Below, piece by piece: positions 1 to 64,000 of a DNA stretch of 64,000 nucleotides. This stretch comes from a virus (lineage: Duplodnaviria; Heunggongvirae; Uroviricota; Caudoviricetes). How positions within the stretch are numbered: position 1 is the first letter of the stretch; the number at the start of each line of letters is the position of its first letter. Below the pieces are notes generated by a model that saw nothing but the letters and a program-made list of their open reading frames with translations, made no database searches and was not told the origin of the DNA. The DNA lies in IMG/VR virus record IMGVR_UViG_3300028601_000019, positions 4,130-68,129 of that record; one strand, written 5' to 3'. A program made the translations under genes and the position numbers.

Positions 1-507
1 AATTCGCCCCTGAAGTAATCAAAGGGGGATGTATGAATTTCACGCAAGTGACTTTATAGAGTTCAATGACTTATGTTTGGTCCTATCCCATCTTAAGCCG
101 CCTCTATAATTGCTCAATGGATGTTGACCTAATAGCTATCCATTGAAGTGGTTAAACCGACTGTACTAGTTTCCTGTAACAATATCAATTTTTTCTAGTG
201 TTCTAGGGATTATATTTATTAATGGGGAAGGGAAGACCGTTTTGTAGATTGGGAGCAAGCAATTGCCCAAAAAGTTTAGATCAAACTAGACCATACCTAA
301 ACTTGGCTTAATCAACCAAACAGAACGTAGGGAAAACGTAAGATACCTCGCCGAAATGCATACTGCAATTTTTATTGTGGGATGTGGTTGGCAGGAAATT
401 GAGATGTTTCTTCTAGAATTTTAATAAGTCTAGGATAGATGTCTCAATTTCCTGCCGACTGCATTGAAAAATTAATTTTTATATTTTTAATTTTTTCTTT
501 GAGTGAA
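1..507. other. Noncoding region of about 500 bp with elevated GC and hairpins. A 15-17 bp inverted repeat (GGCAGGAAATTGAGAT / ATCTCAATTTCCTGCC) at about 400-468 encloses a TCTAGA-containing loop.
   Basis: No ORF is open in any of the three plus frames, even allowing TGA as sense. The inverted repeat was read directly from the sequence. Confidence 0.5.
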
Positions 508-939
508 TTAGATTTGAATAGCAATATTATCAATGTAGATTTTGTTTTCTGATTTCATTTGAATTGAAAACATTTGGAAACCTGATGGTGCTTCAATTTC
601 TTCAATCTGTTTAATTTTCTTTCTTTGAAAAAGAACATGACTTAGATTTAGACTTTTAGCTTTTACCAATGATTTATCAATAAGCATAAATTTTACATTA
701 TGGGAAACCTGAATATAATTTCCATCTTCAAGGGTTACTTTGATTAGAGATTTTTGATTGGCCTCTTCGATTAAAATGACTGGAGAAAAACCATTTACTG
801 TTAAAATTTCAAGAAATCTTTTGTTGATTTTTTTGTTGTCAAGTGCGCTTTTTAAAACATCAACCCTAATTGTGCTTAGTTTGTTTTTTCCCGTCTTAAC
901 AGTTACACTTGAACCTCTGTGAACATAACAATTTTCCAT
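508..939 (-). CDS. Hypothetical protein, 143 aa.
   Basis: ORF with an AAGGA ribosome-binding site 8 nt upstream of the ATG. A TAA lies in frame upstream. No in-frame TGA. Confidence 0.55.
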   Translation of the reverse strand: MENCYVHRGSSVTVKTGKNKLSTIRVDVLKSALDNKKINKRFLEILTVNGFSPVILIEEANQKSLIKVTLEDGNYIQVSHNVKFMLIDKSLVKAKSLNLSHVLFQRKKIKQIEEIEAPSGFQMFSIQMKSENKIYIDNIAIQI

Positions 940-1058
940 GATTATAATTCCTTTTCGTTTTGAATTATAATTATTTATTTAGATTCATTTTCTAATGAAG
1001 AACATTGATGTTTTAATGAATTTTTCATTGATTTCCTCTCAATTATAAATTTGTTTTC

Positions 1059-1066
1059 TATAAATA
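1059..1066 (+). promoter_or_regulatory. T4-type late promoter motif TATAAATA. It sits in an 8-nt insertion that is present in IS copy 1 and absent from copy 2, upstream of tnpB.
   Basis: Exact TATAAATA. Copy 2 reads TTCTATATATAATATT at the same place. Confidence 0.4.
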
Positions 1067-1098
1067 GATATATAATATTAAAACTAGGTTGTAAACAA

Positions 1099-2280
1099 AT
1101 GATTAGATCATCCAAACATATTTTGAAGTATCAGACTGGTTCCAAGACGAAAGTCTTGAACCAGCTTTTTGACGACTTCAGAACTGACTTGTCTTGGTAT
1201 ATAGATCTGATCATTGCTGGGCAATTGCCTCTAACCAAGTTCATGTCATCCAAGGACTTGCCTTCGGGGATCATTACTCATTCTGCTTGGAAACAAATTC
1301 TGTATAAAACAGCATCTGAAATTGTTCGTTCTCAATACAAACAAGCCTCTAATCAAAGATTCAAGCATTACAAGAAATTGTTCCACAAGTGCAGTAGTGC
1401 AAACAAACATTGTTTTTTTACTGACAAACGATTTAGTGAACTGAATCTCAAGCCAATTCATCAATCTAGGTTCTTTAGTAAGCCAGACTTAAAGAACTTT
1501 TCAATCACACTAGATTCTAGATTGATTGACTTTCAATATGGCTTGCATTTCGATGAATTTGTAAGAATTAAAACCCCATTGTTCCATGAGCACAAGAAAC
1601 GTGCCATTACAATCAATATTCCAATCAAACATCACAAACATAGTCGTAAATTCGAGTCATGGGAACGAAAGAACTCAGTTCGATTGACATTAAAGAACGG
1701 AGTCATGAATCTTGAATTGATCTATGAGAAAGATGCACCTAAACTAAAGACAGATGGTTCTGTTCTTGGAATCGATCAGGGCTACAAGAAACTAATGTCA
1801 TGCTCCGATGGAACATTTCTTGGTTCTGAGATGGAATCAATCTACAAGTTCATTTCCAACAAAAAACAAGGCTCTAAGGCTTTCAAGAGAGCATTGATTC
1901 ATAGGACCAATGAAACGAACAGAATTTGTAATTCTCTAGATCTTTCTGATGTCAAAGAACTTGTTGTCGAGGACCTCAAGAACTTGAAACATAAATCAAA
2001 ACTGTCAACAAATTTTATGAACAAGATGCAACGCTGGGTTTATCCAGCAGTACTGGGCAAATTGGAATCCTTGGCTGAAATGAACGGTGTTCATTTCACG
2101 AAGGTGAATCCTGCTTATACTTCGCAGACATGTTCTAATTGCGGATGTGTAGATCCTGAGTCTCGCCAAGGCGAAGACTTCATGTGTCTGCATTGTGGCT
2201 ATGAGATTGATGCAGACTGAAATGCATCAATCAACATTGCCCGTTTGGGAATTTATAGTTCCCAAAGTCCAAAAAGCTAA
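1099..2280 (+). CDS. tnpB: TnpB (IS605 OrfB family RuvC-like RNA-guided nuclease), about 393 aa.
   Basis: RuvC-I motif GIDQG; RuvC-II motif VVEDLKNL; zinc finger CSNCGC...CLHCG; RuvC-III motif DAD-TGA-NASINI. The ORF continues 20 codons past the TGA to a TAA. Confidence 0.85.
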
Positions 2281-2318: not shown

Positions 2319-4310
2319 TTATCAAGTAGATTCTTCAAGATAGTGATCATCATTAATATCTGAAAGAATACCTCATACATCCTCTTCTTCTTTGTTTTTA
2401 AAAAGGTCAACCTCATCCTTAAAAAGTTCTGTATCAATAAGATAGCACATCCAATATAGACCTGAAACAAGGTCATCTCCACCATCTGTACTTGAAGTAA
2501 ACTTTCCATTCTTTTCAATAAAAGTAGAAATTTGTTTTGCTGTTTCCCTATCTTTAATTATTAGAGAACCGTCTTCAATAAGTTTTTTCATTGTGATAAC
2601 AGCTTTGGTTTTAGATGCTGATGTGGCTCTAATTCCGATTTCATTCTCTTTATTTCCAGAATTGTAAAGATTTGGATTTTCAAAAATTCACCAAAGATTT
2701 TGAGTAACAGTAGATCCCTCAGCATTGTTCTCTGCTCCAATAATAGCATCATTATAATAAATTGAAAGCCTGTTAATGATGGAAGAAAGTTCATAGGTAT
2801 CTGTGACATTGGATTGGAAAGTTGCAGCATTAACTAACTTAACTGGTTTGAATGAGTCTATTCTATAGATTTGAATAGTAGCATCATGAGCACCTGATCC
2901 TTTTGATGGATCAACACCAATAAGAAACTTTTCTCCTTGCTTTGGTTTATGATACACTCGTAATCTATCATTTAGATCTGTTTCTTGAGGATCTTCAATT
3001 GTTGTGTTAATAAATTCAATCCCAGCAGTTGAAACTAGAGTATTAGATGACCCGAGGAACTCAACTTCAAATTCCTGTTTGAATTTTGCAAGGTTGCCCA
3101 TATTCTTAATCTGTTTATCTCTTCAGGTCTTTGTTCTTCCAGGAATCATATCCCAAGTAACTTTCATATGTTTGTATTCATTTCTTTTTGCTTCAGCACC
3201 GGAATATATTTCATGAAATAGATTAAACACACCATTTGGGGTTGAAATGATAATAATTTTAGCCTCATCAGAAGATGAAATTGCTGGATATACTGAAGTA
3301 TAAAATTCTCTTGCTATACCGTCGGAGACGAATCCAAGTTCGTCGAGTAGAAGAAGTGCTACTGAACGCCCCCGAAAGGTATCTTCAGTTGTGCCGGCAG
3401 TTTCAATTTTTGACCCATTTTCAAATTCTATTGATTGTTTATTATATTCAACAACACCCGGTTTAAGATAGAAAGGAAGCTCTTCATACATAATTTTAAT
3501 ACGTCTAAGAAGGTCTTTTGCAGAACTTGCCTTATTAGATGCTATTCCAATAAATTTATCAGAGTGAAATATAGCATATCATAAAGCAAAAGCCCCTACT
3601 GTTGTTGAGTTATGACTCTTTACACCATTTGTATAATAACATTCTCCATCAACATCTAAACAATCATACATATTAGATGATGTATCTAATTTTTCAACAT
3701 TAGAAATTTCTATATCACCATTTTCGGTTTCTATAAAATCCCCAATAGTTAGATCCTTAGCATAAATTTCCTTGTCATCAGAAAATAGTATATGATTATC
3801 AGCACACACAAATTCAATGCCATTATTCAATGATACTTTATATTCATTATATTCAACAGTTTTACCAACACCAGAAAAATCTTTTCATCCATCTGGAGTT
3901 CAAATTTCATAATCTTCACAATTTCTTTTCTCTATAAATTTATCATTTATAACAAAAGAAGATGTTGTTAGTTTGTCAAAGAATTCCCCAATGGTTAATT
4001 CTTCTTCTATTCCTGTTTTCTTGTTTCTTATCTTTATTTTTGTATCCCAAGAAACGCACTTGCCCGATTGTCTACAGAATAAAAAAGTTAAGTATCTATG
4101 ATCTTTACACATTTTAATCATCTTTTTCTGGAAAGGATACAACAAATCTCCAAGCTTTTTTCTTCCACCATCAATTGTTACGATTGTAACAAAGTTTAAA
4201 AAATATAAAACATCTTCAGAACACTTTACAAGATCTGAAATCATTTCTGGTGTGTATTCATCTTCCATTCCTGGATTTTTTACAAATTTATCGTCATATC
4301 TAATTGACAT
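2319..4310 (-). CDS. gp17: Terminase large subunit (T4 gp17-like) containing a mini-intein. The precursor is about 663 aa and is read through 6 in-frame TGA codons.
   Basis: Five standard-code ORFs lie in one frame, separated only by TGA. T4 gp17 motifs are present: LFCRQSGK (Walker A), VEYNKQSIEFENGSKI and KIIIISTPNGVFNLFHEIY. The TGA aligns with an aromatic position in gp17. Confidence 0.85.
3609..4058 (-). other. Hint-domain mini-intein of 150 aa inserted in the terminase P-loop. It runs from Cys1 (CVSWDTKI...) to ...VKSHN and is followed by the +1 Ser of the extein (STTVGAFAL).
   Basis: The extein junctions QSGK|C and HN|STTV reconstitute QSGK-STTV, which matches T4 QLGKTTVV. Intein blocks A (CVSWDT), B (ADNH) and F/G (DCLDVDGECYYTNGVKSHN) are present. 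There is no endonuclease domain. Confidence 0.75.
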
Positions 4311-4409: not shown

Positions 4410-5579
4410 ATGTCTGAATTTGATATTTTATTTACAGAACAGGAGAAGAAATCTAAGACTTTTTATCAAATTTCTACTCTATTGGAAAACACTTATAAGG
4501 TAATCAAGAATAACAACCCCAATTTTACTATTGAGGAAGCTGTTTCCTATGCTACAGGGAGTTTGGGGGATATTTCAGATTTCTCAACTAACGGAATTTA
4601 TCATAAAATTTCCATGGGGCTGTCAAAGAAAACTTGGGATAGACTTATTGCAAGAGAAATTGTTGGTGTTCAACCAATGAATGGTCCTGTTGGCTTATAT
4701 TATGCATTAAGATTTTATGCCAATTCTACTTATGGTGGACAAGCAAATCAAGAGCTTGGATTTAACAAGGTAGATACAACTTACACAGGATCATTAACAC
4801 CATCAGCAAGTGAAGCATTGGGATCAGGTATTTCTGGGTATCCCGGACTTGGAATTGGAACCGGGGAAAACATTAAAGAGATTAACATTAAACTTGAAAA
4901 GAAACAAGCTGAAGCACAAACAAGAAAACTAAATGCAAGATTTTCTGAAGAGCTTTTTCAAGATGTTTTCACAATGCACGATGTTAATCTAAGAGATCAG
5001 GTTTATACTGGAATTGCTCGTGAAGTCCAAACAGAAATTGACCTTGAAGTCATTGAAAAGATTAATAGTGTAGCAACAGCAAAAACATTAAATTTTGCTA
5101 CTGTTGCTGGTGATAACAAATCTGATAAGTATAATTCATTTGTTGCATATGTATTAAATCTTGCTAATGTAATTGGTAAGACTTCTAATCATGGTAATGG
5201 TAATTTTGTAATTGCAAGTTCAAATATTTCCGGTGTAATTGAATCTACTCCTCAATTTTCTGTATCAATGATTACAGACAAACAATATGAATGGGATGAT
5301 AGAGTTTGTTTCGCCGGAACAATTAATGGAATGAAGCTTTTTAGAAATATTTTTTGGGATACTGATAAGTACATTGTAGGATATAAGGGTGAAACAGAAC
5401 TTGATGCTGGGATTTTTTATCTTCCATATATTTTTATGCATCTACAAGCCATTCAAGAAAATTCTTTCCAGAATTCTATTGGTGTAATGAGTAGATATGC
5501 AATTGGTGAAAATATTTTTGGTGCTGAGAAATATTATCAGAAAGTTGAAGTAAGCAATATGGATGTTTTATATTCATAG
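4410..5579 (+). CDS. gp24: Major capsid protein paralog (T4 gp24-like vertex protein or second MCP), 389 aa.
   Basis: Shares the T4 gp23/gp24 motifs VGVQPMNGPVG..ALRF and KKQAEAQTRKLNARFS..LFQD with the 11055 gene. No in-frame TGA. Confidence 0.7.
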   Translation: MSEFDILFTEQEKKSKTFYQISTLLENTYKVIKNNNPNFTIEEAVSYATGSLGDISDFSTNGIYHKISMGLSKKTWDRLIAREIVGVQPMNGPVGLYYALRFYANSTYGGQANQELGFNKVDTTYTGSLTPSASEALGSGISGYPGLGIGTGENIKEINIKLEKKQAEAQTRKLNARFSEELFQDVFTMHDVNLRDQVYTGIAREVQTEIDLEVIEKINSVATAKTLNFATVAGDNKSDKYNSFVAYVLNLANVIGKTSNHGNGNFVIASSNISGVIESTPQFSVSMITDKQYEWDDRVCFAGTINGMKLFRNIFWDTDKYIVGYKGETELDAGIFYLPYIFMHLQAIQENSFQNSIGVMSRYAIGENIFGAEKYYQKVEVSNMDVLYS

Positions 5580-6162: not shown

Positions 6163-6537
6163 ATGCCTTTACCAGAGCCTAAATCAAATGAAAAAGAAAA
6201 AGATTTTGTTTGTAGATGTATTTCAATACTTTCTGAAGAAAGGGATGAAATGGGGAATCTTCGTTGGCCTCAACAGAATCAAAGAATTGCTGTTTGCTAT
6301 TCTCAATGAGAAAAAAAGAATGAATCAGTTATCATAGATAGAATAAATAAATTTTTAGATGAATCTACAGTGGCTGGAGATGTTGCATCTTATGAGAAGC
6401 CAATTGCAATGGGTAAAAATTCTTATATCCAAAAAAGAGATAAGAAATGATCTTACATTGTTGACGAAAAAGAAGTTGATTCAGATGAAGATGTTGAAGA
6501 ACTTAAAAAAAGAATTAAGAAGGTGGAAAAATAAATG
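6163..6537 (+). CDS. Hypothetical protein of about 124 aa, with 2 in-frame TGA.
   Basis: Read through TGA. Late promoter and ribosome-binding site present. Lies immediately upstream of the portal gene. Confidence 0.45.
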
Positions 6538-8085
6538 GGATTTTTAACAGGATTAAAAGATTTTTTCTTTTCCAACGATGTTAATGAGGAATTGAAACAA
6601 TTTAAAAACATAGGTCAAGAAACAAAAAGAAAGGATTCAGAATTTGGTGAAGGATTTGAAAATCCCCTGATGGCGGCAGCAGGGTTGATTTCCCAGCAAT
6701 TTTATGACAAGTATCTATATCAAAAGCTTGATACTAAAATCAAAAAGATTGAAGAGTATCGAAGAATTGCTGGCAATTCTGAAATTTCTGATGTTATTGA
6801 GGATGCTGTTATTGAATCTACAATGCCAAATGATCAAGATGAAATTTTTAAATTGATATTTAGAGATGAAAAACTTGAGAAAAATAAAAATGCTGTAAAA
6901 AACATTGAAAATGAATTCAATGAACTTATCTACAACAGACTTAGATTGAATACAAAAATTCAAAATTATATGGAAGATTATTTCATTGATGGCGAACTTT
7001 ATTTTGAAAATGTTATTGATACTAACAACGCCAAGAAAGGTATTTTATATTGAAAGAAACTTCCAACAGAAACCATGGATTTTATTTACAATTATGAGAA
7101 AGGAATGACAGATGCATATATCCAGTATCTTAAAGGCGGATTAACCAACACCCTAATTAGATCTATTGAAGATGCTAGAAACTGTAAAGATATTATAGTA
7201 TTTGATAAATCTCAAATTGCATATGTGAATTATGGTAAGTTTTCTCCAGTAGATAGAACAAAGGTATTTGGCTATCTTGAAAAAGCAAGAAAGCCCTTTA
7301 ATCAGCTTAATATGCTTGAAACATCGGTGATCATTTATAGATTAGTAAGAGCTCCTGAAAGATTTGTTTTTAATATTGATGTTGGCAATATGCCCAGAGA
7401 TAAAGCTATGCAATTTGTTGAAAAAATGAAACAAAAACTTTCAACAAAAGAGTCTTTTGATCCTGAAACCGGTCTTTTAAAGAAAGCAGTTAATGTAATG
7501 TCGATTTCTGAAAACTTTTTCTTGCCGACTTCATCGTCCGGACGAGCAAGTTCTGTTAGTACTGTTGGCGGCAATCCTTCTGGTTTTGCTGAATTAGATG
7601 ACATCTACTATTTTCAAAAGAAACTATATAAAGCTTTAAAATACCCCATTACCAGAGTTCAAAATGCTAAAGATGGCCATTCTGGAGACAGTTTATTTGG
7701 TGGATCTTCCAATTTTGGTGAAATCCCTAGAGATGAAGTAAAATGATCTGTTTTTCTTGAAAATCAACAAGATAAGTTTTGTAGAATGCTGCTTAAAACT
7801 TTTCTTATTCATCTTGAGTTTAAAGGATTTTTAAAACAATATGGATTAGATGAATATTCTTTAGCTATTTCTATGAATTGTCCTAATTCATATAGAGATC
7901 AAATTGAACAGAAAGGAAGAGAAACAAAATTCAATAACTATAATATGCTTGTATCTAATGCCGAATTTTCAAAAACATATTTAATGAAAAGATTTCTTGA
8001 TATGGATGATGATGAGATAAAGCTTAATGCCGAAGGCCACAAACTTGACAAAGAATTATTTGGGGCCGGAGAGGAGGACGTTTAA
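6535..8085 (+). CDS. gp20: Portal protein (T4 gp20-like), 516 aa, with 2 in-frame TGA.
   Basis: Three same-frame ORFs are joined by TGA. The size matches gp20, and it lies upstream of the protease, scaffold and MCP genes as in T4. Confidence 0.7.
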
Positions 8086-8403: not shown

Positions 8404-8913
8404 ATGAAAAAATATGTTTTGTACCTTTTTTTAGTACTATTGTGTGTTGGTTGTGCCCCAAAGCAATTTGAACCATTTCAACCACCAGAAATAAAGTTTG
8501 AAAAAACACAAGAGTATAAACTTGATCTATCTTCTATAAAAAAACCAGAAAAGATAAATCCAATCTTTGTTGATGGAAATTTTAAAGAGGTTTCAATAGA
8601 TGAAGCAAAATTCGTTCTTCTAACCCCAAGCGAATATGCTAAAGTTGGAGCAGTAGTTCAAATGGCAGTAACGTACAAACAAATTGCTATAGAGGAAGAA
8701 ACTTTAATAAATTTACATATAAATACTATTAATGCACTTAAAGAATATCTTGAACTTGAAAGGCAAAAGTCTCTTCAGTATAGAGAACTTTGAGTCAATG
8801 CTGAAAACAACTATAGATATGAGAAATGGGAACATCAAAAATCTTCTTTCTTTTATCAAACAGGATTATATGCTATAAGTTTTGGATCATTGATTGCATT
8901 GTTTGTATTATAA
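8404..8913 (+). CDS. Putative lipoprotein (signal peptide MKKYVLYLFLVLLCVGC) with a C-terminal transmembrane segment after TGA read-through. About 170 aa.
   Basis: Lipobox L-L-C-V-G-C. After TGA at 8791 the frame continues to GLYAISFGSLIALFVL and a TAA. Confidence 0.5.
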
Positions 8914-53021: not shown

Positions 53022-53029
53022 ATAGATTT

Positions 53030-53698: not shown

Positions 53699-53705
53699 GA
53701 TAAAA

Positions 53706-54917: not shown

Positions 54918-55346
54918 GTTTTAAAATATCTTCTCTTGAACTAACAACAATATTATTTTGAGTATAGGTGTTATTATCTCCGGATGGTAACACCTTTTCA
55001 TCTTTATTTTTCTTTAATTCAAATTCTAATTTTTTCAAATCCAAAAATTCTTGCTTTTGATTAGTGGTTTCTAATGATACATCATTAGATATCATTGAAT
55101 TAGCAGCACTAGTTATACAATCAATTAATTTAGCAGCAATCTCAACTAATTTAACTGTGGCTCCAGTCGTGCCAACACTTCATTCATCTTCAATTTTATC
55201 AAGAAGTCTCTGCGCCCTTGCGATATTTCCTTGAAGAATTTCATTAGGATTGTTTACATCCTCATCCAACTGGTTTTTAATATTCTTAAGTTCTTGTTTT
55301 GCTACTTCAATATCGAAACAATCTGAGAGGGTTTTATCCAACATAA
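54907..55346 (-). CDS. Hypothetical protein of about 146 aa, with 1 in-frame TGA. A minus-strand TATAAATA lies upstream at 55367..55374.
   Basis: The reverse complement shows a GGAG ribosome-binding site and an ATG. Confidence 0.4.
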
Positions 55347-55966
55347 TAAACTCCTAATTTTTTAACTATTTATATAAGGAGGTATGTGTGAAGAAATTAT
55401 TTCGCGAAGAATATGAAACATATAATGATGAGGCCATTAAAATTTCTAAAGAAATAGGAGTTGAGATCAGAAAAATGATTGATCATTATTGTAATGATTG
55501 CGGGTACTACGTAAATGAGATTCAACATATTTTATTTGACGAGGAATATTGAAATCAAAAAGGAGAAAAGAAAGAATGATTTGGCATAGTATTAGGGATT
55601 TTTTACCTGGACGAAATGTAAGACAAATACTACTATATTTTGCATCATCTCAAAACTTAGTTCTGATAAATTTAGATGAAGATCCTACCAATACTTCTAA
55701 TATAGTTCGGGAGTACATTTTTAAACGAAAATATCATGTAGAAGATAAACCTGATAATTATATTGATTGGCCCACTCATTGGATGGAAGTCAAATTTCCG
55801 GTAATTTAATTTATGAAAAGATACAAAATTAAAGTGTTTAAATATGGGGATGCTAGTTTTGATTATATAATCATACGAGCATTTGGATTTGATTCTCTTT
55901 GTTTACAAGCTGAAGATTTTTGTAGGAAGTCAACAACATATAAAGAATGGATTTTTGTTGGAGAAG

Positions 55967-56686
55967 ATGATGAGATTTAAACCATATTCAGTATCTAAGA
56001 TCGAATGCTTCTTAGATTGTCCCAAAAAATTTGAATGAAGATATATTACTAAACCAGATGTTAAACAAACAGTCAAACACTTTGAAAAAGGAAAGCTTTG
56101 ACATTCACTAATTGAACACTCAATCAAAAGAACAACTAAAAATTTTGTTAAACCAAAGTTCTATGAATTATCTCAAGAAGAATATTTACATGAACTTTCT
56201 AATATAGTAAAGTTTGTTAAAGGAAGGTTTTTCTTACCATATCTTCAAGATGTAATGAGATTTAAACAACTTTTGGAACAGCGATTTTCTATTACTGATG
56301 ATGGAGAAGTTTCCTTTAATAATGATCTAAACCCTCTTTTCAAAGGATTCATTGACTTAGTTCAGTTTGATGATTTCGATGTTGAGATTATAGATTGGAA
56401 GACTGGTGGAAAGAGTGTTGAGAATATTCAAAGATATCCCAAGTCAACTTTTCAATTAGATGTGTATGCTTATGTTGCTCATAAGATCTTTAACCCTAAG
56501 TCTATTATTGGTAAGTATGTCTATGTTGAACACGAATACGAACATGTTTTAAAAAATTTTAATCATATGGAAACCTGGAGAGAAATATTATGGAATATTA
56601 ACACTATAGAGAATTGTAAAGATTTTGAAAGAAAAGAAAGTACACTTTGCGACTGGTGTGAGTTTAGAGGAATCTGTTTAGAATAA
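55967..56686 (+). CDS. Cas4/RecB-like PD-(D/E)xK exonuclease with an Fe-S cluster (DUF83), 239 aa, 2 in-frame TGA.
   Basis: N-terminus YSVSKIECFLDCPKKFE-W-RYI. Motifs GFIDLV and DWKTG. C-terminal cysteines CDWCEFRGIC. Confidence 0.55.
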
Positions 56687-56698
56687 AAGGAGAAAATT

Positions 56699-57340
56699 AT
56701 GTTTAAGAAAGCTATGTTTTTGCTAATGTTTGTTATCTTTATGGCGGTTGGTTGTGATCAAGTTATTAACACAAAGATTGAGCTTGATACACTTGAATCA
56801 TTTAATCCAGAAAGTGGAATGATTTTTGTTCCTGGACGGCTTGCTTTCGAAGTGCCATCTGAAAAGGAGTTCAATAAGACTCGTCACTTTCTTGAAGTAA
56901 CTTTAAATGATTATTTTATGAATGTTAGAAATGTTAAACATGTTAAAGAGAATTTTGATGATATAGTGCTTGTAGATGTTGATATTCCACTAACCTTTAA
57001 AAGAGTAGATGATATGCCAACACCATTTTATTTCACTTATAACGATAAGACTCTATATATAAATCTTTCCGGGGTTGCATTAACTAGACTTAATGATGAT
57101 CTTAAGAAGGCTCTTAACCAGGGAATAAATAGACTTGTAGACATTAGGGTTAACGCTTATGTTGTTAATACAACTCACTACCCAGTTACTCTTACCACTC
57201 CATCTCTGTTTATTGATAATACATCAGTAAACGACAACACAACTATTGAACTTGATTCTGGAGAATCAACAACTATTACATGTTCTAACGTAATGGTAGA
57301 TTTATCATCTAAGCAATCTGTAAAGATTTTCTCATTCTAA
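56699..57340 (+). CDS. Lipoprotein, 213 aa. The signal peptide has the lipobox MAVGC.
   Basis: MFKKAMFLLMFVIFMAVGC. Confidence 0.55.
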   Translation: MFKKAMFLLMFVIFMAVGCDQVINTKIELDTLESFNPESGMIFVPGRLAFEVPSEKEFNKTRHFLEVTLNDYFMNVRNVKHVKENFDDIVLVDVDIPLTFKRVDDMPTPFYFTYNDKTLYINLSGVALTRLNDDLKKALNQGINRLVDIRVNAYVVNTTHYPVTLTTPSLFIDNTSVNDNTTIELDSGESTTITCSNVMVDLSSKQSVKIFSF

Positions 57341-57346
57341 ATAGGG

Positions 57347-57373
57347 AGGGATTAAGTTCCCTCTTCTATTTTA
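57347..57373 (+). terminator. Hairpin GAGGGA-ttaagt-TCCCTC followed by a T-run.
   Basis: 6-bp stem after the lipoprotein gene. Confidence 0.5.
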
Positions 57374-57394
57374 AAAAAGTTTAAAGGAGGTTGA

Positions 57395-58642
57395 ATGTAT
57401 AGTACTGAAGAAATTTATAAAGTATATTTTGAATTGAATAAAAACAAATCCGCTACAGCAAAAGAACTTGGAATCGATTGAGGAACTGTTCATAGACATG
57501 TAGAAAAGTTTGAAAATGGTCAAGAACAGTTTTCCTATGGAAATATGAATGATAATTCAGCTGATGAATCTGATGTCTTTGAAGGTGAAATTGATGGTGA
57601 ATCTTTTACAGATGAAGATCTCTTTAAGAAATTCAATCTAAGTCCAGATCAATGAGCTATAAGTTCTATTGTTCACAACGAATGAGAAACTCCGATCAAG
57701 AATGATCTTGGAGAAGTTACACCACATACTAACAAACAATCTAAAGTTATTTTCAAAAAAATTATTAAGGATATAACATTAGATATCATTAAAGAACAAT
57801 ATAATCTTCTTTCTAAAAAGTATGTACCAATTATAAGAAGTGAAACAAAACAAAAGAAACCTTGTATGTATGAAATCGCCATTGCCGATCATCATTTTGC
57901 AAAACTTGCTTGGGATATGGAAACTGGTGAATCTTACGATATTAAGATTGCTAAGAGTTATTACATTAATGCGGTCCGGGACCTTCTAGCAAGGGCTTCT
58001 CATCTCAATATCAATAAGATTCTCATGCCTATTGGAAATGATTTGTTTAACTTTGATGGAATCAGAAATGAAACCACTGCCGGTACTCCACAAGATTCTG
58101 ATTCAAGATGGACAAAGGTTTTTAGAGTAGTATCAGAAACCCTAGTTGAAGTTATTGATATCTGTAGAGAAGTTGCTGATGTAGATGTTATTGTTGTTCC
58201 AGGAAATCATGATAGAGCATCATGTTTTTATCTTGGGGAATTTCTCTCAGCGTGGTATAGATTAGATAAGAATGTTAATGTTAATAATGATCCAACACTA
58301 AGAAAGTACTATGCTTATGGTAAAACTTTAATTGGGTTAAGTCATGGGAATGAAGAGAAACATGCTAATCTTCCATTACTAATGGCACGCGAAGCTAAAG
58401 AGGCTTGGGGACAATGTGAGTTTTATGAATATCAGATTGGACACTGGCATAGGAAGAAAATGACAGAGTATGTTTCTGGGGATACCTATAATGGGGTTCA
58501 AGTAAGAGTTTTACCCTCTTTAACTGGGACAGATGCTTGACATTATTCCAAAGGATTTGTAAAGGGCATCAAATCTGCTGTTGGTATTGTATATGATAAA
58601 AATGAAGGCTGTATTGCTGAATTTATAACAAAGGTGAAATAA
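57395..58642 (+). CDS. Helix-turn-helix plus calcineurin-like metallophosphoesterase protein, 415 aa, with 4 in-frame TGA.
   Basis: N-terminal helix-turn-helix (KSATAKELGID-W-GTVHRHV). C-terminal DHHF, GNDLF, GNHD and GHWH motifs. Frame verified. Confidence 0.45.
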
Positions 58643-58828
58643 ATGAATGAGAAACATTATTGTTGCGTTTGTGCAAGACAAATAACTAACAACAAAAATA
58701 ATAATGATTATGAATGTCAGGGTCCTGTAAAATATATGGGGCCAACATTGGGTTTTATTTGTGCAGAATGTTCTAAAGATTTAGATGAAGATGGTTTATT
58801 CCCCGAAGAAAGAAATGGTTTACTATAA
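58643..58828 (+). CDS. Zinc-ribbon small protein, 61 aa.
   Basis: CCVCAR...CQG...CAEC. Confidence 0.4.
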   Translation: MNEKHYCCVCARQITNNKNNNDYECQGPVKYMGPTLGFICAECSKDLDEDGLFPEERNGLL

Positions 58829-58831
58829 ATA
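58824..58831 (+). promoter_or_regulatory. Late promoter TATAAATA upstream of the tail tube gene.
   Basis: Exact motif plus an AAGGAG ribosome-binding site. Confidence 0.5.
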
Positions 58832-58867
58832 GTTATATGAAACTTATTTCAAGGAGATTTAATTAAA

Positions 58868-59383
58868 ATGGCTATTAACGGATTCGATATCGATGCTTTC
58901 AGAAGCAATTACGCTGATTTAGCTCGCCAATATACTTTCGTTATTCATTTGAATAACCCATTTGGCACTTTAGGAACAGAAGCAACAAAATTTTTGGTTA
59001 ATGCTTCAAGTATGCCTGGATCTACTATTGATCCAATTGAAGCACATTGGCAAGGCAATATTATGCCACTTGCTGCTACACATACTTTTGAAGATTGGAC
59101 AGTAACTTTTAAATGTGATAGCAAAGCTCAAATTAGAAAGGATTTGCTTAAATGGCATGAAACTATTCATAATCCACGTACCAATGTTCATGCTGCCCCA
59201 AGTGTTTATATGGTTGATCAAGAAATTTGGCAGCTTAATACAGAGGGCAACCCAATTCATAAAATGAAATTAATTGGTGCTTGGCCTACTGTAGTTGGTG
59301 AATTAACTTTGGATTATAGTGCCAAAGATATCTGTACTTTCGACGTTACAATAAAGTACATTAGACACGAGACAATCGGTTAA
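58868..59383 (+). CDS. gp19: Tail tube protein (T4 gp19-like), 171 aa.
   Basis: TFEDWTVTF matches T4 TFDDWTVTV. LIGAWPTVVGELTLDY matches IKGLWPTNVGELQLDW. Confidence 0.8.
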   Translation: MAINGFDIDAFRSNYADLARQYTFVIHLNNPFGTLGTEATKFLVNASSMPGSTIDPIEAHWQGNIMPLAATHTFEDWTVTFKCDSKAQIRKDLLKWHETIHNPRTNVHAAPSVYMVDQEIWQLNTEGNPIHKMKLIGAWPTVVGELTLDYSAKDICTFDVTIKYIRHETIG

Positions 59384-59400
59384 TTAAGGAGATTTTGTGT

Positions 59401-60135
59401 ATGGCTTTTAATTTTCAGCAGCACTTAAATGTGTATGAAAAAATTGTGGAACTCCCTTCTAATGGGGAACAAGTAAAGATTAAACCTATTACTACAAACC
59501 AAATGAAAAAGCTTTTGGTTTATGAAAATGAAAGTGATCCTATTTTTGGAGAAGTAATTCTTGATGAAATTCTAGGATTTTCCGTAATTGATAAAGATGT
59601 TAAAGAATTGCTTCTTCAAGATAGATATTATCTTTTTATTGAAGTAAGAAAATTAACTAAAGGTTCGAAACATTCTTACAATCATACATGTGAAAAGTGT
59701 AACTCCCCTATTATTAGTACTATTGACTTAAATAAATTAAAGGTTCAAAAACCTAAAAAAAATCTAGTTAAAGAAGTAGAGATTTTAAATGGGACTTTAA
59801 TTTTGACTCTTGATTTTCCTACTAGAGCAAAACAGGAAGAAGGATATTCTCATATTGATTCAAAACTTTCTGTATCTGAAAAGCAAGTAGAAATGATTAT
59901 TGCTAATTTAGCACAATCTATTGTATCTATTAAGTCTCCTTCTGGTGTAGATGAAAATATTCCAGTTAAAGACAAAATGGATTTTGTTGGAAATCTTCCG
60001 GGTACTGATTATGATACTTTAAAAGATTGGTTTGATAAAAATGATTTTGGTATTGATTTAACAATCAAAACAAAGTGCCCATATTGTTCTACAGTAAATG
60101 AGCATTCTTTACCCATGAACAATTTTTTTCAATAA
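59401..60135 (+). CDS. Hypothetical tail-associated protein of 244 aa. A possible chaperone given its position.
   Basis: ORF between the tube and tape-measure genes. Confidence 0.35.
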   Translation: MAFNFQQHLNVYEKIVELPSNGEQVKIKPITTNQMKKLLVYENESDPIFGEVILDEILGFSVIDKDVKELLLQDRYYLFIEVRKLTKGSKHSYNHTCEKCNSPIISTIDLNKLKVQKPKKNLVKEVEILNGTLILTLDFPTRAKQEEGYSHIDSKLSVSEKQVEMIIANLAQSIVSIKSPSGVDENIPVKDKMDFVGNLPGTDYDTLKDWFDKNDFGIDLTIKTKCPYCSTVNEHSLPMNNFFQ

Positions 60136-60357
60136 TTAAACTGTTTACAATGGATTGTTCATTAAATTCTATTATAGAAGAGCAATATCAATTGTCAAAA
60201 AATGTTAATATAAGCATTGTGGAATCTGGTGAGCTTATTGATTTTGAAAGACTGGCATATATCTCTTTATTAGTTAGAGACAAAAGAAAAGAAAATGAAA
60301 TATTAAAAGCTAATAAATAGATATAACTCACTTGGACATCGATCCAAAGGATTCATA

Positions 60358-60400
60358 AAGAGTCTAAAGAGTGTTTAAAACATTTTTTAGACTCTTTTTA
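60358..60400 (+). terminator. Hairpin AAGAGTCTAAA...TTTAGACTCTT followed by a T-run.
   Basis: 11-bp stem. Confidence 0.55.
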
Positions 60401-60414
60401 TTTGGAGAAAATAT

Positions 60415-61974
60415 ATGGCTGAAAAAGATACTTTAAGAGATAATGTAAGGAAGGATGTTAAACAGACTACAACACTTCCTTTTAGTTTTAAAAATTTTGT
60501 TACTGGTATAGGGCTTGCTATTTCAAGATCTGGTGCACGGACATGAGATAAATTAGCTGATATGCCAGATGAAATAAAAAATGGATTTTCAAAAGTTTCT
60601 AGTACTATTCAATCTAGTACTACTGAAATTATGGGGTCCGCTTTAAATTCAATGATTGGAGATATTAAGTCTTTAGCATCGGGAATAAAAGATATTACTA
60701 CAGGAACTTTTAAAAAACTTTTTTCATTCTTTGGTGGTGATAATGAAGAGCTCAGTGAAGAAAAGAAACAAACAAAAACTCTTGGCAATATTTTTAAGAT
60801 TTTTAAGAAATGAAGCATTAGAGATATGTTTAAACCTAAAGAAAAGAATAAAGATGATGGAGGTTTTTTTGCCCCATTAGCTATTATAGGTCTTGCACTT
60901 GGAGCTATCACTGGTGGAATAGCTGCTGGTATTGGTGGTGTCATTGAATATTTTCTTATTCCTTTTAAAGTGGTTTTAAATAGTTTAAGAGGTGTTACTA
61001 CTCTTTTAAAGGAATCTTCAATTGGAAAACTTTTTATTGATTTTTTTGGAAAAGTAAGAGCATTTTTTAGTGGGTGAATTGATAACGCTTTAGTTTCTAT
61101 TAATAGTTTTTTTGGAAAGTTTAAAATTTTTGCTGGATTTTTTAAAGGGTTTAGTATTGGATTTATGAAACTATTTTCAAAAATTCCTGTTATCGGATGA
61201 TTTATTACTGGCGTAATGGCAATTATTGATTTTTTTACTGGGTTTTTCGGAACGGAAGGAAGCTTCTTTGAAAAAATAAAGGCCGGCTTAATAAACATGA
61301 CCACTGGATTTTTTTCCCCAATTTTTGAATTTATAGGATGAATTGGAGATTGAATTTTAAATCTATTTGGAATAAATTCTGATATAGGAACAACCTTAAA
61401 TACTTGATTTTCTAATCTTTTAAATTTCTTTTTTAATTTTCCTATAGTTGAAAAACTTAAGAATGCTTGAGAAGGAATACAAAATGCTGCAAATGCACTT
61501 GTTGAATCATTAAAAAATTGACTAATATCATTAATTCCCTCTTTCGATTCTATTAAAGAAATGCTTCCATCTTTTGACTCTATTAAAAAATCTATAATTG
61601 GGACAAGAGATACTATCAAAGATGAGGCTAAAAATGCTTGAAATTCGGCAGGCGAATATATTGGATCTTTTTTTGAAAAGGACAATTTATCACCAGCTCA
61701 GACTATTAGTGATCTTGATTCATCTACTAAAGCAAAAGAAGTATCCAATAATAAAGAAATGGCAAAAGCATTATATAAAATGACAGAACAACAAATTAAA
61801 GAATCTAAAAAACGTGATGAAGAAAAGAAAGAAACAGTTAATCAGCAAGTTAATGTTTCTTCAGTTCAAAATTCAAGAGGATCTTCCGGAGGCACATTTA
61901 TTGAGGCTCCGGATGAAATTGAAAACTTTGGAATTGTATTTATGAATAAAACAACACTAGGAGGAACGTTCTAA
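60415..61974 (+). CDS. gp29: Tail tape-measure-like protein of about 519 aa, Gly-rich with hydrophobic segments and about 9 in-frame TGA.
   Basis: ORFs 60562, 60826 and 61759 share a frame. Position after the tube gene and before a gp48-like gene, matching the T4 order 29-48. Confidence 0.55.
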
Positions 61975-62795
61975 TGGATTATGATTTAGTTCCAGTTCCT
62001 TTTTCAAACTTAGTTAAAATTAAGTTTGTATCTAAAAAACTTAGTTCTCAAAGGGCATATGCTAGAGGAGCAAATCAACTTAATGTTGATGAATCTGATA
62101 GAAACACATGAACTTTTATTGCTCCAGAAGAACTTCAGGAAAACGTTTCTCATACTTGGGATACTTATGAAAGCTTAGCAAGTCGCCTTTCATCTAAAGT
62201 TGGTGAAATTCACACAGCATTAACAGATTTACAGGGGTTTAAAAGTGCTGTTGGTGGAGCATATACAGGATTAAAGCCCAATGAAGGTCAGAGTTTTGCC
62301 TCAACAGAAACAATTAAAAATGTTGTGTCTTCTGCAGTTAGAGAATCTGCTAAAGTAGATATACCATCATACAGAGTAGATACTGCTATGGTTTATAAGG
62401 ATTCTTCAAGACTCGAATACTCTCTGACAATGACACTTGCAGATATGAATGGTGATCCATATAATTCTATAGTTAAACCTGTTAGAGAACTTGAAAAACT
62501 TTCTTGCCCTGAAATGGCTGATGACACTATTCTTATTAATTTTCCTTATATATTTCAAGTATATACAGTTGGATCTGAAATTATAAATGTAAAAAATGCG
62601 GCAATTATTAATGTTGCTCCATTATGAAAGGGGCCAATTGTTAACAATTATTATAGTATGTGTGAACTTACTATAATTTTTAGAGATATAGAACCCCTAT
62701 ATAGAACTACTTTTAGTAAAGGTGGAATTATAAGAACTTCGAAATCACAACCACAAGCAAGAACAGATTTAACAAATGGATTTAGTGGGAGATAA
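61974..62795 (+). CDS. gp48: Baseplate-tube junction protein (T4 gp48/gp54-like), 273 aa, with 2 in-frame TGA.
   Basis: Follows the tape-measure gene as in T4. Frame verified. Confidence 0.4.
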
Positions 62796-62797
62796 AT

Positions 62798-63169
62798 ATG
62801 GACCTTTCTAAATATAATGAATATACTAAACAGAATCTATCTAATTCTACACAGCTTAAGCTGTTTACTATTTTAGATGATGTTACTAATAATACATATT
62901 ATTTAAATATTTTTAGATCATATATAATAAACATGTCGTCATTGAATGATACATCATTCTATGAATTATATGAAGTTGATAATAATGATTGATTTGATAA
63001 TATAAGTTATAAATTTTATAATACCCCACAACTATGGTGGGTTATTTGTATGGTTAACAATATAATTAATCCTTTTGAAGAACTTCAACCTGGCCAAATT
63101 CTTAGAATTCTTAAAAATTCTTATATATATAACATATTAAAAGAAGTTAGAAATATAGGAAATGCATAA
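62798..63169 (+). CDS. Small baseplate-associated protein, 123 aa, with 1 in-frame TGA.
   Basis: Frame verified. Confidence 0.35.
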
Positions 63170-64000
63170 TGTATACACAGGAAGATGTAAGAACTTTTGC
63201 TATTGTTATTAATACTGCTAGAGGATTGGTAACATTAGACTCATCAGATATAATTCAATTTTATTTTATTGAAGATATATTTTCTATGTCCATGGTTGGA
63301 AAACTTATAATGAAGGATAACAGAGGACTTGTTGAATTTGCACCATTAACAGGAAATGAAACTCTTTCTATTTCCTATGGTGAGGAAGAAACTATAGACA
63401 AGGAATTTAGAATTTATAGCATTTCAAAAATTGATAAACTTGAAAATGTAGATCCAACTGGCAAGAATGTTATTGAGCTTTTCTTTACTGATCAGATGTT
63501 TTTCCCTGTTAATTTCCTTCAATTTTCAAAATCTTGAGGACCAATGAGAATTTCTGATATTGTTAAAGATATTGGAGAAAAAATGCTAGGAATTCGGGTT
63601 TGAGATAAATTTGAAAAGTCCAATGAATTTATAGAGGGATTTTATTCTCCGTATTGGAACCTAAGCACGTGTATTAAGTGGTTAATGAAACGAGCATCTG
63701 GTGTCACCTCTGATAAAACCGGATATTGCTTTTATAATAACTCATATGGATCTAATCTCATTACTCTAAACACACTTTTAGAGCAAACAGAGCTAATGAA
63801 AATTAGCTCAGAAGATGATGGGGTTTACACTTTTGAGGATCCCAATCTTTTTCTTTATAATAAAATTTTAAATTGAAGTATGATGGGAATAGATAATTCA
63901 TCATTAAGATTTATTGCTGGCGGCACAAGATTTGGTTTTAATAATGCAAAAAAGAAATTTATTAAAAAGGAATATCTATATAAGGATATTTTAAAAAATC
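63169..64000 (+). CDS. Baseplate protein, truncated by the window end, with at least 4 in-frame TGA.
   Basis: Continuous frame to the window edge. Confidence 0.35.

What the first reader, a model, noticed from the sequence alone, without database searches (positions are those of the whole stretch)
1..64000. T4-like myovirus that reads TGA as Trp (genetic code 4)
Core T4 homologs are present: gp23, gp20, gp21, gp18, gp19, gp55, gp46/47, UvsX and UvsW. They are only contiguous if TGA is translated. TGA falls where T4 has an aromatic residue (Phe in UvsX, Cys/Phe in gp55, His/Phe in gp17) and at the conserved TnpB position DAD-x-NAAxNI. This favours Trp over Gly (code 25). GC is about 30%, Shine-Dalgarno sites are strong and there are several lipoproteins. 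These fit a Mollicutes-like host, for which no T4-like phage is known. Alternatively this is a recoded phage of a standard-code host. No suppressor tRNA-Trp(UCA) is seen in this window.
Basis: partly seen in the sequence, partly recalled or inferred. Interest (0 to 1): 0.85.

Follow-up and report, generated by a model that had tools for sequence, protein, structure and literature searches.

The report
T4-like phage reading TGA as tryptophan
This is part of a T4-like phage genome from an oxygen-free environmental sample that reads the stop codon TGA as tryptophan in most genes but keeps a block of probable early genes free of TGA, the pattern already known from recoded phages of normal-code bacteria rather than a sign of a mycoplasma-like host.

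Summary
The window is a T4-like myovirus: gp17, 18, 19, 20, 21, 22, 23, 24, 46, 47 and 55, UvsX and UvsW are all present. In-frame TGA falls on tryptophan columns of standard-code relatives (W 81, G 1), so this is code 4, not code 25.

The Mollicutes-host reading is not supported.
- The tail spike, 0.4 kb past the window, carries a peptidoglycan-hydrolase domain.
- The closest relative has a GH108 endolysin.
- A spanin-like lipoprotein and anaerobic ribonucleotide reductase point to a walled anaerobe.

TGA use is uneven. A 15-kb block (22.5-37.6 kb) has 6 TGA against 51 TGG; the rest of the window has 114 against 78. The same avoidance is seen in two relatives, and the closest relative's DNA polymerase has 0 TGA against 11 TGG. 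True Mycoplasma phages use TGA in every Trp-containing gene (77-87% of Trp codons).

This matches the known staged recoding of phages that infect standard-code hosts (Borges et al.). No tRNA(UCA) was found in the window, in its flanks, or in 78 kb of the closest 133-kb relative, so what decodes TGA is unknown. I class it as a new member of a known kind. The host and the decoder remain inferred.

The parts
1..64000 (.). Segment of a T4-like myovirus genome (probably about 130 kb or more) that reads TGA as Trp
   Evidence: The same phage, at 100% nucleotide identity, is in ENA ERZ27247324, JGI 3300044603 and SRR25572339.
1099..2280 (+). TnpB copy 1 (Cas12f-like TNB domain), 1 TGA
   Evidence: Pfam PF07282, E=3.6e-20. 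89% nucleotide identity to copy 2.
2319..4310 (-). Large terminase gp17, 7 TGA / 4 TGG. It carries a probable mini-intein at aa 85-234 (about 3609-4058).
   Evidence: TGA sites 244, 396, 541 and 646 align to invariant W in relatives. The intein hit is weak.
4410..5579 (+). gp24-like vertex protein, 0 TGA / 3 TGG. A late-promoter motif lies 53 nt upstream.
6535..8085 (+). Portal gp20, 2 TGA
   Evidence: Portal_T4, E=5.9e-90. TGA site 404 aligns to W in 13 of 13 relatives.
8404..8913 (+). Lipoprotein with a C-terminal membrane segment, resembling a unimolecular spanin
   Evidence: Lipobox LLCVGC and a C-terminal hydrophobic segment, read from the sequence. phrog_812 Rz-like spanin, E=3.2e-5. Weak evidence.
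9123..9710 (+). Prohead protease gp21, 1 TGA
   Evidence: Peptidase_S77, E=8.2e-36. The TGA site aligns to W in 13 of 13 relatives.
10026..12296 (+). Scaffold gp22 and major capsid protein gp23. Neither has a TGA (6 TGG in all). Each has TATAAATA 47 nt upstream.
13307..14278 (-). DUF7487 gene, probably from a mobile element, 8 TGA / 1 TGG
   Evidence: PF24308, E=7e-57. Counts.
14411..16342 (-). Tail sheath gp18, 4 TGA / 8 TGG
16475..17740 (+). PIN-PhoH fusion protein, 2 TGA
   Evidence: PhoH E=9e-41 and PIN_4 E=1e-19.
19178..20117 (+). gp4-like head completion protein and gp2-like DNA end protector, 9 TGA / 2 TGG together
   Evidence: Several of the TGA sites align to W.
21988..22500 (+). Late sigma factor gp55, 1 TGA in the conserved AYITQIAxNAF motif
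   Evidence: T4 has F and HTVC008M has Y at this position.
22501..37648 (+). TGA-poor block with 6 TGA / 51 TGG. It holds gp47, about 20 small ORFs, DUF932, the two tRNAs, the Band-7 lipoprotein, TnpB copy 2, NADAR and gp46. I infer it is the early, standard-code-compatible module.
   Evidence: Fisher p=1.5e-11 against the rest of the window. The avoidance is conserved in relatives L051 (p=6e-11) and L050 (p=0.003). The A-ending bias of other codons is unchanged in the block. No TATAAATA site lies between 19.2 and 38.2 kb.
27332..27485 (+). tRNA-Arg(CCT) and tRNA-Met(CAT), the only tRNAs in the window
   Evidence: ARAGORN and Rfam. Relatives have Arg(TCT) and Met(CAT) at the same place.
32717..33898 (+). 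TnpB copy 2, 1 TGA at DADxNAS
   Evidence: 100% identical to P0001, which the ENA gene caller predicted with W at that site. Column analysis.
37649..38701 (+). UvsX recombinase, 2 TGA / 3 TGG
39871..44085 (-). 1404-aa protein of unknown function, 8 TGA / 4 TGG
   Evidence: The only match is phrog_18612, of unknown function. No Pfam match.
45117..46550 (-). UvsW helicase, 2 TGA / 5 TGG
48992..63999 (+). Neck, tail and baseplate module. It includes gp13-like, a fibre or decoration protein, gp15, two tail-tube paralogues, a baseplate hub, a tape-measure-like protein (60415-61974, 10 TGA / 0 TGG), gp53-like and gp27-like (cut by the window end). The module is TGA-rich, except the tube gene at 58868-59383 (0 TGA / 5 TGG).

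Best explanation
This is a lytic T4-like phage of a peptidoglycan-walled, probably diderm, anaerobic bacterium that itself uses the standard code. The phage genome is written in two dialects. A block of probable early genes, and in the closest relative the replication genes, avoid TGA, so the unmodified host ribosome can translate them. Most middle and late genes use TGA as a tryptophan codon. These include gp55, UvsX, UvsW, terminase, portal, sheath, baseplate, spike, the endolysin of the relative and the mobile-element genes. They can only be made once TGA termination is suppressed in the infected cell. The most abundant virion proteins (gp23, gp24, gp22 and the tube) keep TGG. I take this as a sign that TGA is decoded less efficiently than an ordinary codon.

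Shown: TGA means Trp, its distribution among genes is uneven and conserved, and the phage carries cell-wall hydrolases.
Inferred: the expression timing of the TGA-poor block, the standard code of the host, and the existence of a phage-made decoding factor. That factor was not found.
For: TGA means Trp.

TGA is avoided in a specific block.
- Block 22.5-37.6 kb has 6 TGA / 51 TGG, against 114 / 78 elsewhere (p=1.5e-11).
- The same holds in relatives at about 75-80% nucleotide identity: L051 has 2 / 51 against 29 / 17, and L050 has 2 / 14 against 26 / 20.
- Lys, Glu and Gln codons show the same A-ending bias inside and outside the block, so the avoidance is specific to TGA.
- In the closest 133-kb relative, DNA polymerase has 0 TGA / 11 TGG and the other replication genes are TGA-poor. 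Its endolysin has 3 / 2 and its DUF7487-like genes have 3 / 0 and 5 / 3.

T4 late-promoter motifs sit 30-59 nt upstream of structural genes, and none lies between 19.2 and 38.2 kb.

Overall, TGA is 49% of Trp codons, against 69-88% A-ending for the other NNR pairs. Phages of true code-4 hosts show 77-87% TGA, in every Trp-containing gene including the replication genes.

Host clues.
- Spike with a VgrG3-like peptidoglycan hydrolase, E=2e-48.
- GH108 + PG_binding_3 endolysin in the relative.
- Spanin-like lipoprotein.
- NrdD and NrdG upstream of the window.

The pattern matches published TGA-recoded phages of standard-code hosts. In those, replication genes stay in the standard code, structural, lysis and homing-endonuclease genes are recoded, and only 35% of genomes have a detectable suppressor tRNA (bioRxiv 10.1101/2021.08.26.457843).
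Against: No tRNA(UCA), release factor 1 or TrpRS was found. I searched the window, 4.2 kb upstream of it and 5.4 kb downstream. I also searched 78 kb (21.7-100.0 kb) of the closest 133-kb relative. That stretch holds 8 tRNAs and a CCA-adding enzyme, but no Trp or suppressor tRNA.

The host is not identified, and its code is inferred only from phage codon usage.

gp55, UvsX and UvsW are not late genes in T4, yet they contain TGA. Suppression would therefore have to start early.

Six TGA codons lie inside the 'standard-code' block.

The expression timing of the block is inferred from gene content and the lack of late promoters. A sigma-70-type promoter scan was uninformative.

Other recoded clades of the same family show TGA fractions of 0.72-0.94 near their capsid genes, which looks host-adapted.
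Confidence: 0.6

Rival explanations
1. The host itself reads TGA as Trp. It would be an unrecognised, walled, anaerobic bacterial lineage using code 4, and the phage simply shares its code, so no phage suppressor is needed.
For: No suppressor tRNA was found in roughly the whole gene content sampled across the window and its closest relative. TGA-recoded clades of this phage family are deep: capsid identity between them is only 50-59%, and all use TGA for Trp. Some clades have TGA fractions of 0.83-0.94, equal to their mutational bias. TGA occurs in gp55, UvsX and UvsW, which are not late genes in T4.
Against: The conserved, TGA-specific avoidance in a 15-kb block and in the relative's replication genes has no explanation under a code-4 host. 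Real Mycoplasma phages show no such avoidance. From general knowledge, not tested here, no walled free-living code-4 lineage is known. Standard-code sister phages use TGA as a stop codon (25 of 198 stops).
Confidence: 0.2
2. The host is a Mollicute (Mycoplasma or Spiroplasma-like, wall-less, code 4).
For: Code 4 and GC of 31%. A standard-code relative's contig is binned in a 'Candidatus Izimaplasma HR2' MAG.
Against: The spike carries a peptidoglycan hydrolase, the relative has a GH108 endolysin, and there is a spanin-like lipoprotein. TGA usage is far from that of Mycoplasma phages. The close relatives that could be traced come from a landfill biofilm. The Izimaplasma-binned contig uses the standard code, and binning is weak evidence for a host.
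Confidence: 0.03
3. TGA encodes glycine (code 25), and the host is an Absconditabacteria or Gracilibacteria bacterium.
For: Low GC and an anoxic environment rich in CPR bacteria. Related phage contigs are binned in CPR MAGs.
Against: TGA aligns to W 81 times and to G once. W is the majority in every recoded clade. No homologue has G at the TnpB site.
Confidence: 0.01
4. The TGAs are real stops. The sequence would then be a decaying genome full of pseudogenes, or contain assembly errors, or rely on occasional read-through.
For: None beyond the standard-code reading itself.
Against: 120 in-frame TGA codons are spread evenly along the genes. They sit at conserved Trp columns. They are at the same places in independent assemblies from three sources. 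They are conserved in relatives.
Confidence: 0.01

Closest known systems
TGA-to-Trp recoded phages of standard-code hosts (code-4 'Agate' and 'Jade' clades and others; Borges et al., bioRxiv 10.1101/2021.08.26.457843)
   Same: TGA is read as Trp. GC is low. Early and replication genes are kept in the standard code, while structural, lysis and homing-endonuclease-type genes are recoded. Close standard-code relatives exist. The genome is of about 130 kb and the phage is virulent. A suppressor tRNA is often not detectable (35% of code-4 genomes have one).
   Different: Those phages come from human and animal guts. Here the relatives that could be traced come from a landfill biofilm. This lineage is demonstrably T4-like, whereas the paper gives no morphotype for its clades, so identity with one of them cannot be excluded. 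Here the most abundant virion proteins avoid TGA, and gp55, UvsX and UvsW contain it. No suppressor tRNA, RF1 or TrpRS was found.
T4-like phages of aquatic bacteria (Kyanoviridae, e.g. Pelagibacter phage HTVC008M) and T4 itself
   Same: The same core gene set (gp17-24, 46, 47, 55, UvsX, UvsW, baseplate genes), the TATAAATA late-promoter motif, PhoH, a tRNA cluster, and homing-endonuclease or intein-type insertions.
   Different: Capsid protein identity is only 35-38%. The gene order is rearranged. Those phages use the standard code. This lineage carries TnpB elements.
Phages of code-4 hosts (Mycoplasma phages MAV1 and phiMFV1)
   Same: TGA is read as Trp, and GC is low.
   Different: In those phages TGA is 77-87% of Trp codons and occurs in every Trp-containing gene. 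They are small, not T4-like, and the parts read here have no annotated cell-wall hydrolases.
Code-25 phages of Absconditabacteria and Gracilibacteria (Borges et al.; Liu et al. 2023, PMC10746230)
   Same: TGA is a sense codon, GC is low, and CPR-rich habitats are involved.
   Different: There TGA means Gly and about 90% of genes are recoded. Here TGA means Trp and about half of all genes are recoded (45 of 88, or 45 of the 67 that contain Trp).

Membership tests
T4-like myoviruses (T4 core-gene set) | Presence of the T4 core structural and replication or recombination genes (gp23, 20, 17, 18, 19, 21, 22, 46, 47, 55, UvsX, UvsW) | tested here: met
   Pfam, PHROGs and tblastn to T4 and HTVC008M.
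T4-like myoviruses (T4 core-gene set) | gp55-dependent late promoters (TATAAATA) upstream of late genes | tested here: met
   12 of 16 motif sites lie 30-59 nt upstream of gene starts (gp24-like, gp22, gp23, gp18, gp13-like and tail tube among them). The motif is not enriched overall (16 sites against 26 expected), so only its placement counts as evidence.
Genetic code 4 (TGA = Trp) | In-frame TGA in conserved genes, and no gene needs TGA as its stop | tested here: met
   120 in-frame TGA codons in 45 genes. All 88 gene models end in TAA or TAG.
Genetic code 4 (TGA = Trp) | TGA falls on conserved Trp columns of standard-code homologues | tested here: met
   W 81 of 138 aligned residues, and W is the majority at 18 of 35 sites. 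Aromatic residues predominate in the T4 and HTVC008M alignments.
Genetic code 4 (TGA = Trp) | A tRNA-Trp with anticodon UCA (or another decoder) is available | tested here: not met
   None in the window, its flanks or 78 kb of the closest relative. The rest of the genome and the host could not be examined.
Genetic code 25 (TGA = Gly) | TGA falls on conserved Gly columns | tested here: not met
   G once among 138 aligned residues. W is the majority in all recoded clades.
Stop-codon-recoded phage of a standard-code host (Borges type) | A set of early or replication genes free of the recoded stop codon, with late, structural and lysis genes recoded | tested here: met
   The timing itself is inferred from gene content and promoter motifs.
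Stop-codon-recoded phage of a standard-code host (Borges type) | Phage-encoded code-change machinery (suppressor tRNA, RF1, TrpRS) | tested here: not met
   Not found in any sequence fetched. Only 35% of published code-4 phages have a detectable suppressor.
Stop-codon-recoded phage of a standard-code host (Borges type) | The host uses the standard code | not testable with these tools
   The host is not identified. MAG bins that hold related contigs (Shapirobacteria, Izimaplasma) are not reliable links to a host.
Phage of a Mollicute host | A wall-less host, so the virion and lysis system need no peptidoglycan hydrolase | tested here: not met
   VgrG3-like hydrolase domain in the spike. GH108 + PG_binding_3 endolysin in the closest relative.
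Phage of a Mollicute host | TGA is used at the level of mutational bias in all gene classes | tested here: not met
   TGA is 0.49 of Trp codons overall and 0.11 in the block. MAV1 and phiMFV1 show 0.77-0.87.
TnpB (IS200/IS605 OrfB, Cas12f-like) | C-terminal TNB/RuvC-Zn domain with the DADxNA motif | tested here: met
   PF07282, E=3.6e-20. 1014 homologues found. Motif alignment. The flanking guide RNA and element ends were not analysed.

The most novel reading that the evidence does not exclude
This phage lineage may turn TGA into a Trp codon without any suppressor tRNA. One route would be to disable host release factor 2 and let a CCA-anticodon tRNA-Trp read UGA. Another would be to edit or modify C34 of that tRNA. 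Several observations fit this reading. No tRNA(UCA) was found in almost the whole gene content sampled. Other recoded clades of the family carry tRNA-Trp(CCA). TGA is under-used. The most abundant proteins avoid TGA.
Probability: 0.2. Interest if true: 0.8.

Novelty: new member of a known kind. Interest (0 to 1): 0.42.

Why it matters
The finding extends stop-codon recoding, described mainly for gut phages, in two directions. It now reaches the best-understood phage architecture, T4-like, whose early, middle and late programme and late promoters can be read from sequence. It also reaches anoxic environmental habitats.

Several deep clades of this family use TGA for Trp, and standard-code relatives sit beside them. 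This makes the family a good place to study how a code change arises and how it is timed.

There are practical consequences too. Standard-code gene calling shatters these genomes: JGI's gene calls for this same phage are fragments, while the ENA and Logan gene callers used code 4. In addition, GenBank MAGs labelled Shapirobacteria and Izimaplasma hold contigs of this phage family. The missing decoder is the part that could turn out to be new.

Tried and rejected
- ORF cover as a test of the code. It is not specific, because making TAA a sense codon also raises cover in this AT-rich DNA. I used alignments instead.
- megablast against GenBank phages: no match.
- TnpB as a host tracer.
  - No close TnpB was found in GTDB genomes.
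  - The named homologues (Shapirobacteria) sit on T4-like phage contigs, not on host DNA.
- Band-7 lipoprotein as a host tracer. Its homologues are unnamed metagenome proteins at about 60% identity plus one Portnoybacteria MAG fragment, which is uninformative.
- Capsid search of GTDB genomes. It found three MAG contigs, and the two long enough to judge use the standard code. Binning is not host evidence.
- Search for a suppressor tRNA. No credible tRNA(UCA) was found by any of these routes.
  - ARAGORN and Rfam on the window and on all 100+ fetched loci.
  - ARAGORN at relaxed thresholds, which gave only noise inside genes.
  - Walking along the closest 133-kb relative with all eight viral scans and the one metagenome scan.
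- Hirsh-type D-arm feature in the tRNA-Trp(CCA) genes of other recoded clades: not consistent between them.
- The base following TGA: it does not differ from the base following TGG (p=0.17).
- Sigma-70 promoter scan of the TGA-poor block: no enrichment.
- Literature search for T4-like code-4 phages or for the sample accessions. It identified only the landfill origin of sample 3300028601.

Full report
**What is in the window.** The 64-kb window has 31.3% GC and is a stretch of a T4-like myovirus.
- Pfam finds Gp23, Portal_T4, Peptidase_S77, Terminase_6N/6C, sheath domains, PIN-PhoH, a sigma-70 region-2 protein and a Metallophos nuclease.
- PHROGs adds the gp13-type adaptor, gp15, two tail-tube paralogues, a baseplate hub and a tape-measure-like protein.
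- tblastn against T4 and Pelagibacter phage HTVC008M pairs window genes with gp17, 23/24, 20, 21, 18, 4, 55, 47, 46, UvsX, UvsW, 15 and 19.
- The capsid protein is at most 38% identical to any GenBank phage, and there is no nucleotide match.

**TGA is a sense codon.** A codon-scored gene model gives 88 genes ending in TAA or TAG. They contain 120 in-frame TGA and 129 TGG codons, and 45 of the 67 Trp-containing genes have at least one TGA. Non-overlapping ORF cover rises from 78% to 92% when TGA is read through. This measure is not specific in AT-rich DNA, because making TAA a sense codon also raises it.

The evidence that decides the question is that terminase (7 TGA), sheath (4), portal (2), protease, gp55, UvsX and UvsW are full-length only with TGA read through. 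Not every core gene needs this. gp23, gp24, gp22, gp47, gp46 and one tube gene have no TGA at all.

**TGA means tryptophan.** IMG/VR holds 48 relatives of the capsid gene, some recoded and some using the standard code. I aligned window proteins, with X at each TGA, to the standard-code relatives. The aligned residues were W 81, I 11, F 8, Y 7 and G 1, and W was the majority at 18 of 35 sites. Many of those sites are invariant W columns. Against the distant T4 and HTVC008M proteins, the aligned residues are mostly aromatic. All other recoded clades of the family also place TGA on W. At the TnpB DADxNA position, 119 homologues have L, Y, I, F, T or V and never G. Code 25 is excluded.

**Source and relatives.**
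- The same phage, at 100% nucleotide identity, occurs in ENA ERZ27247324, JGI 3300044603 and SRR25572339. It is broken into contigs at its TnpB copies.
- The ENA and Logan gene callers had already used code 4. JGI's calls are fragments.
- These contigs add 4.2 kb upstream of the window (anaerobic ribonucleotide reductase NrdD and NrdG, and an ATP-grasp protein) and 5.4 kb downstream (gp27, a gp5-type spike, gp25 and gp6).
- The closest IMG/VR relatives come from a landfill biofilm metagenome.
- The closest long relative is a 133-kb contig, IMGVR_UViG_3300042267_000149. Its capsid protein is 89% identical and its DNA about 80% identical.

**How TGA is distributed.** TGA makes up 49% of Trp codons, whereas the A-ending member of the other NNR codon pairs makes up 69-88%. 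The distribution among genes is over-dispersed (p=4e-5).
- A contiguous block at 22.5-37.6 kb has 6 TGA against 51 TGG. The rest of the window has 114 against 78 (Fisher p=1.5e-11). The block holds gp47, about 20 small ORFs, the two tRNAs, a Band-7 lipoprotein, TnpB, NADAR and gp46.
- Lys, Glu and Gln codons have the same A-ending bias inside and outside the block, so the avoidance is specific to TGA.
- The avoidance is conserved in relatives at 75-80% nucleotide identity. L051 has 2 / 51 against 29 / 17 (p=6e-11), and L050 has 2 / 14 against 26 / 20.
- In the 133-kb relative, DNA polymerase has 0 TGA and 11 TGG, and the neighbouring replication genes are TGA-poor. The endolysin (3 / 2) and the DUF7487-type mobile genes (3 / 0 and 5 / 3) use TGA.
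- The T4 late-promoter motif TATAAATA lies 30-59 nt upstream of twelve genes, among them the gp24-like gene, gp22, gp23, the sheath, the gp13-like gene and the tube gene. It is absent from 19.2-38.2 kb.
- The most abundant virion proteins avoid TGA (4 TGA of 26 Trp codons, all four in the sheath).
- As a calibration, the Mycoplasma phages MAV1 and phiMFV1, whose hosts really use code 4, have 77-87% TGA, close to their A-ending bias. They use TGA in every Trp-containing gene, including the replication genes.

**Host clues.**
- The gp5-type spike of this phage lies 0.4-2.2 kb past the window end. It has 7 TGA and 0 TGG, and it carries a VgrG3-like C-terminal domain (PF21277, E=2e-48). From general knowledge, that domain is a peptidoglycan hydrolase in Vibrio VgrG3.
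- The closest relative has a GH108 + PG_binding_3 endolysin next to a membrane protein.
- Window gene 8404-8913 is a lipoprotein with a C-terminal membrane segment and a weak match to Rz-like spanins.
- NrdD and NrdG point to anaerobic growth.
- SD-like cores precede 84% of well-scoring genes.

Together these indicate a walled, probably diderm, anaerobic host, not a Mollicute. The MAG labels attached to related contigs (Shapirobacteria, Portnoybacteria, Izimaplasma HR2) refer to phage contigs, and the two long enough to judge use the standard code. I do not take them as evidence for a host.

**The decoder was not found.** The window has only tRNA-Arg(CCT) and tRNA-Met(CAT). Relatives have Arg(TCT) and Met(CAT) at the same place. 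I used all eight viral scans to read 21.7-100.0 kb of the 133-kb relative (L002, L107, L095, L076, L069 and L112). That stretch holds eight tRNAs (Asn, Ala, Leu-CAA, Thr, Glu, Leu-TAG, Pro and Gly) and a CCA-adding enzyme. It has no Trp or UCA tRNA, RF1 or TrpRS.

The window plus this stretch probably cover most of the gene content of the lineage. That estimate rests on assumed synteny of the unread 55 kb, which I did not show. Two other recoded clades carry tRNA-Trp with a CCA anticodon, not UCA.

**Interpretation.** The conserved, TGA-specific avoidance in probable early and replication genes fits the published model for phages that infect standard-code hosts and switch the code during infection. 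So do the recoded structural, lysis and mobile-element genes, the under-use of TGA and the wall-degrading enzymes. In that study only 35% of code-4 genomes had a detectable suppressor tRNA (bioRxiv 10.1101/2021.08.26.457843).

I give this reading 0.6. A walled host that itself uses code 4 gets 0.2, mainly because no decoder was found and because some sister clades use TGA at the level of mutational bias. A Mollicute host gets 0.03. Code 25 and the pseudogene reading are refuted.

**Novelty.** TGA-to-Trp recoding of phages is known. I found no report of it in a T4-like lineage or from landfill-type habitats in the literature I could search. I class the finding as a new member of a known kind. 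The open point with real potential is how TGA is decoded without a recognisable suppressor tRNA.

Noticed in passing
window 3609-4058 (- strand), inside the terminase gene 2319-4310: A roughly 150-aa insertion sits directly after the Walker A GK. It starts with Cys and ends with HN followed by S, so it is probably a mini-intein (Pfam Intein_splicing E=0.002, below the cutoff). The relative L002 has the same insertion plus a second one carrying a GIY-YIG-like endonuclease.
   Followed up: partly
window 1099-2280 and 32717-33898; also L051, L063, L069 and L088-L093: A TnpB-only element is present in two copies in the window (89% nucleotide identity). It sits at different sites in relatives, including inside the head module and next to replication genes. 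At least six fragments occur in one other metagenome (contigs Ga0265295). It seems to be actively transposing in a lytic T4-like lineage, and assemblies break at it. Its ends and guide RNA were not analysed.
   Followed up: partly
window 27332-27406: The tRNA-Arg has anticodon CCT here but TCT in relatives L050 and L051, although AGG is rare in the window (57 AGG against 404 AGA).
   Followed up: no
window 13307-14278 (- strand): A DUF7487 gene between the capsid and sheath genes has 8 TGA and 1 TGG, among the most TGA-biased genes in the window. Similar genes in the relative are also TGA-rich. This parallels the preferential recoding of a homing endonuclease reported for Agate phages.
   Followed up: partly
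window 39871-44085 (- strand): A 1404-aa ORF with no Pfam match, matching only PHROG 18612 (unknown function). It lies next to a Nudix gene (39347-39838) and an ADP-ribosyltransferase gene (44269-44826).
   Followed up: no
window 54414-54917 and 58868-59383: There are two tail-tube (gp19-type) paralogues. One has 3 TGA / 1 TGG. The other has 0 TGA / 5 TGG and a late-promoter motif upstream.
   Followed up: no
L077 1048-1140 and L099 6461-6553 (another recoded clade): A 93-nt tRNA-like gene with a long variable arm. A palindrome (AAAATCTGCAGATTTT) takes the place of a normal anticodon stem-loop. Rfam did not report it at its gathering threshold.
   Followed up: no
L064 (JRFF01000075.1), L065 (JBAZML010000002.1); proteins P0022, P0027-P0030 and P0153: GenBank MAG contigs labelled Candidatus Izimaplasma HR2 and Candidatus Shapirobacteria carry T4-like capsid genes. 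Proteins from Shapirobacteria and Portnoybacteria MAGs match this phage family's TnpB and Band-7 genes. These are probably binning errors.
   Followed up: partly
L037, L041, L030, L032 and L036 (IMG/VR relatives): Other deep clades of the same T4-like family are also TGA = Trp. Near their capsid genes TGA reaches 72-94% of Trp codons, and standard-code ORF cover drops as low as 54%. They are recoded much more heavily than the window's clade.
   Followed up: partly
window 28237-28640 compared with L057: The ENA contig of the same phage aligns to the window in two pieces that overlap by about 320 nt in the contig, near window position 28455. ARAGORN's relaxed mode also reported the same weak hit twice in the window, 317 nt apart. 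This suggests a short tandem duplication whose copy number differs between assemblies.
   Followed up: no
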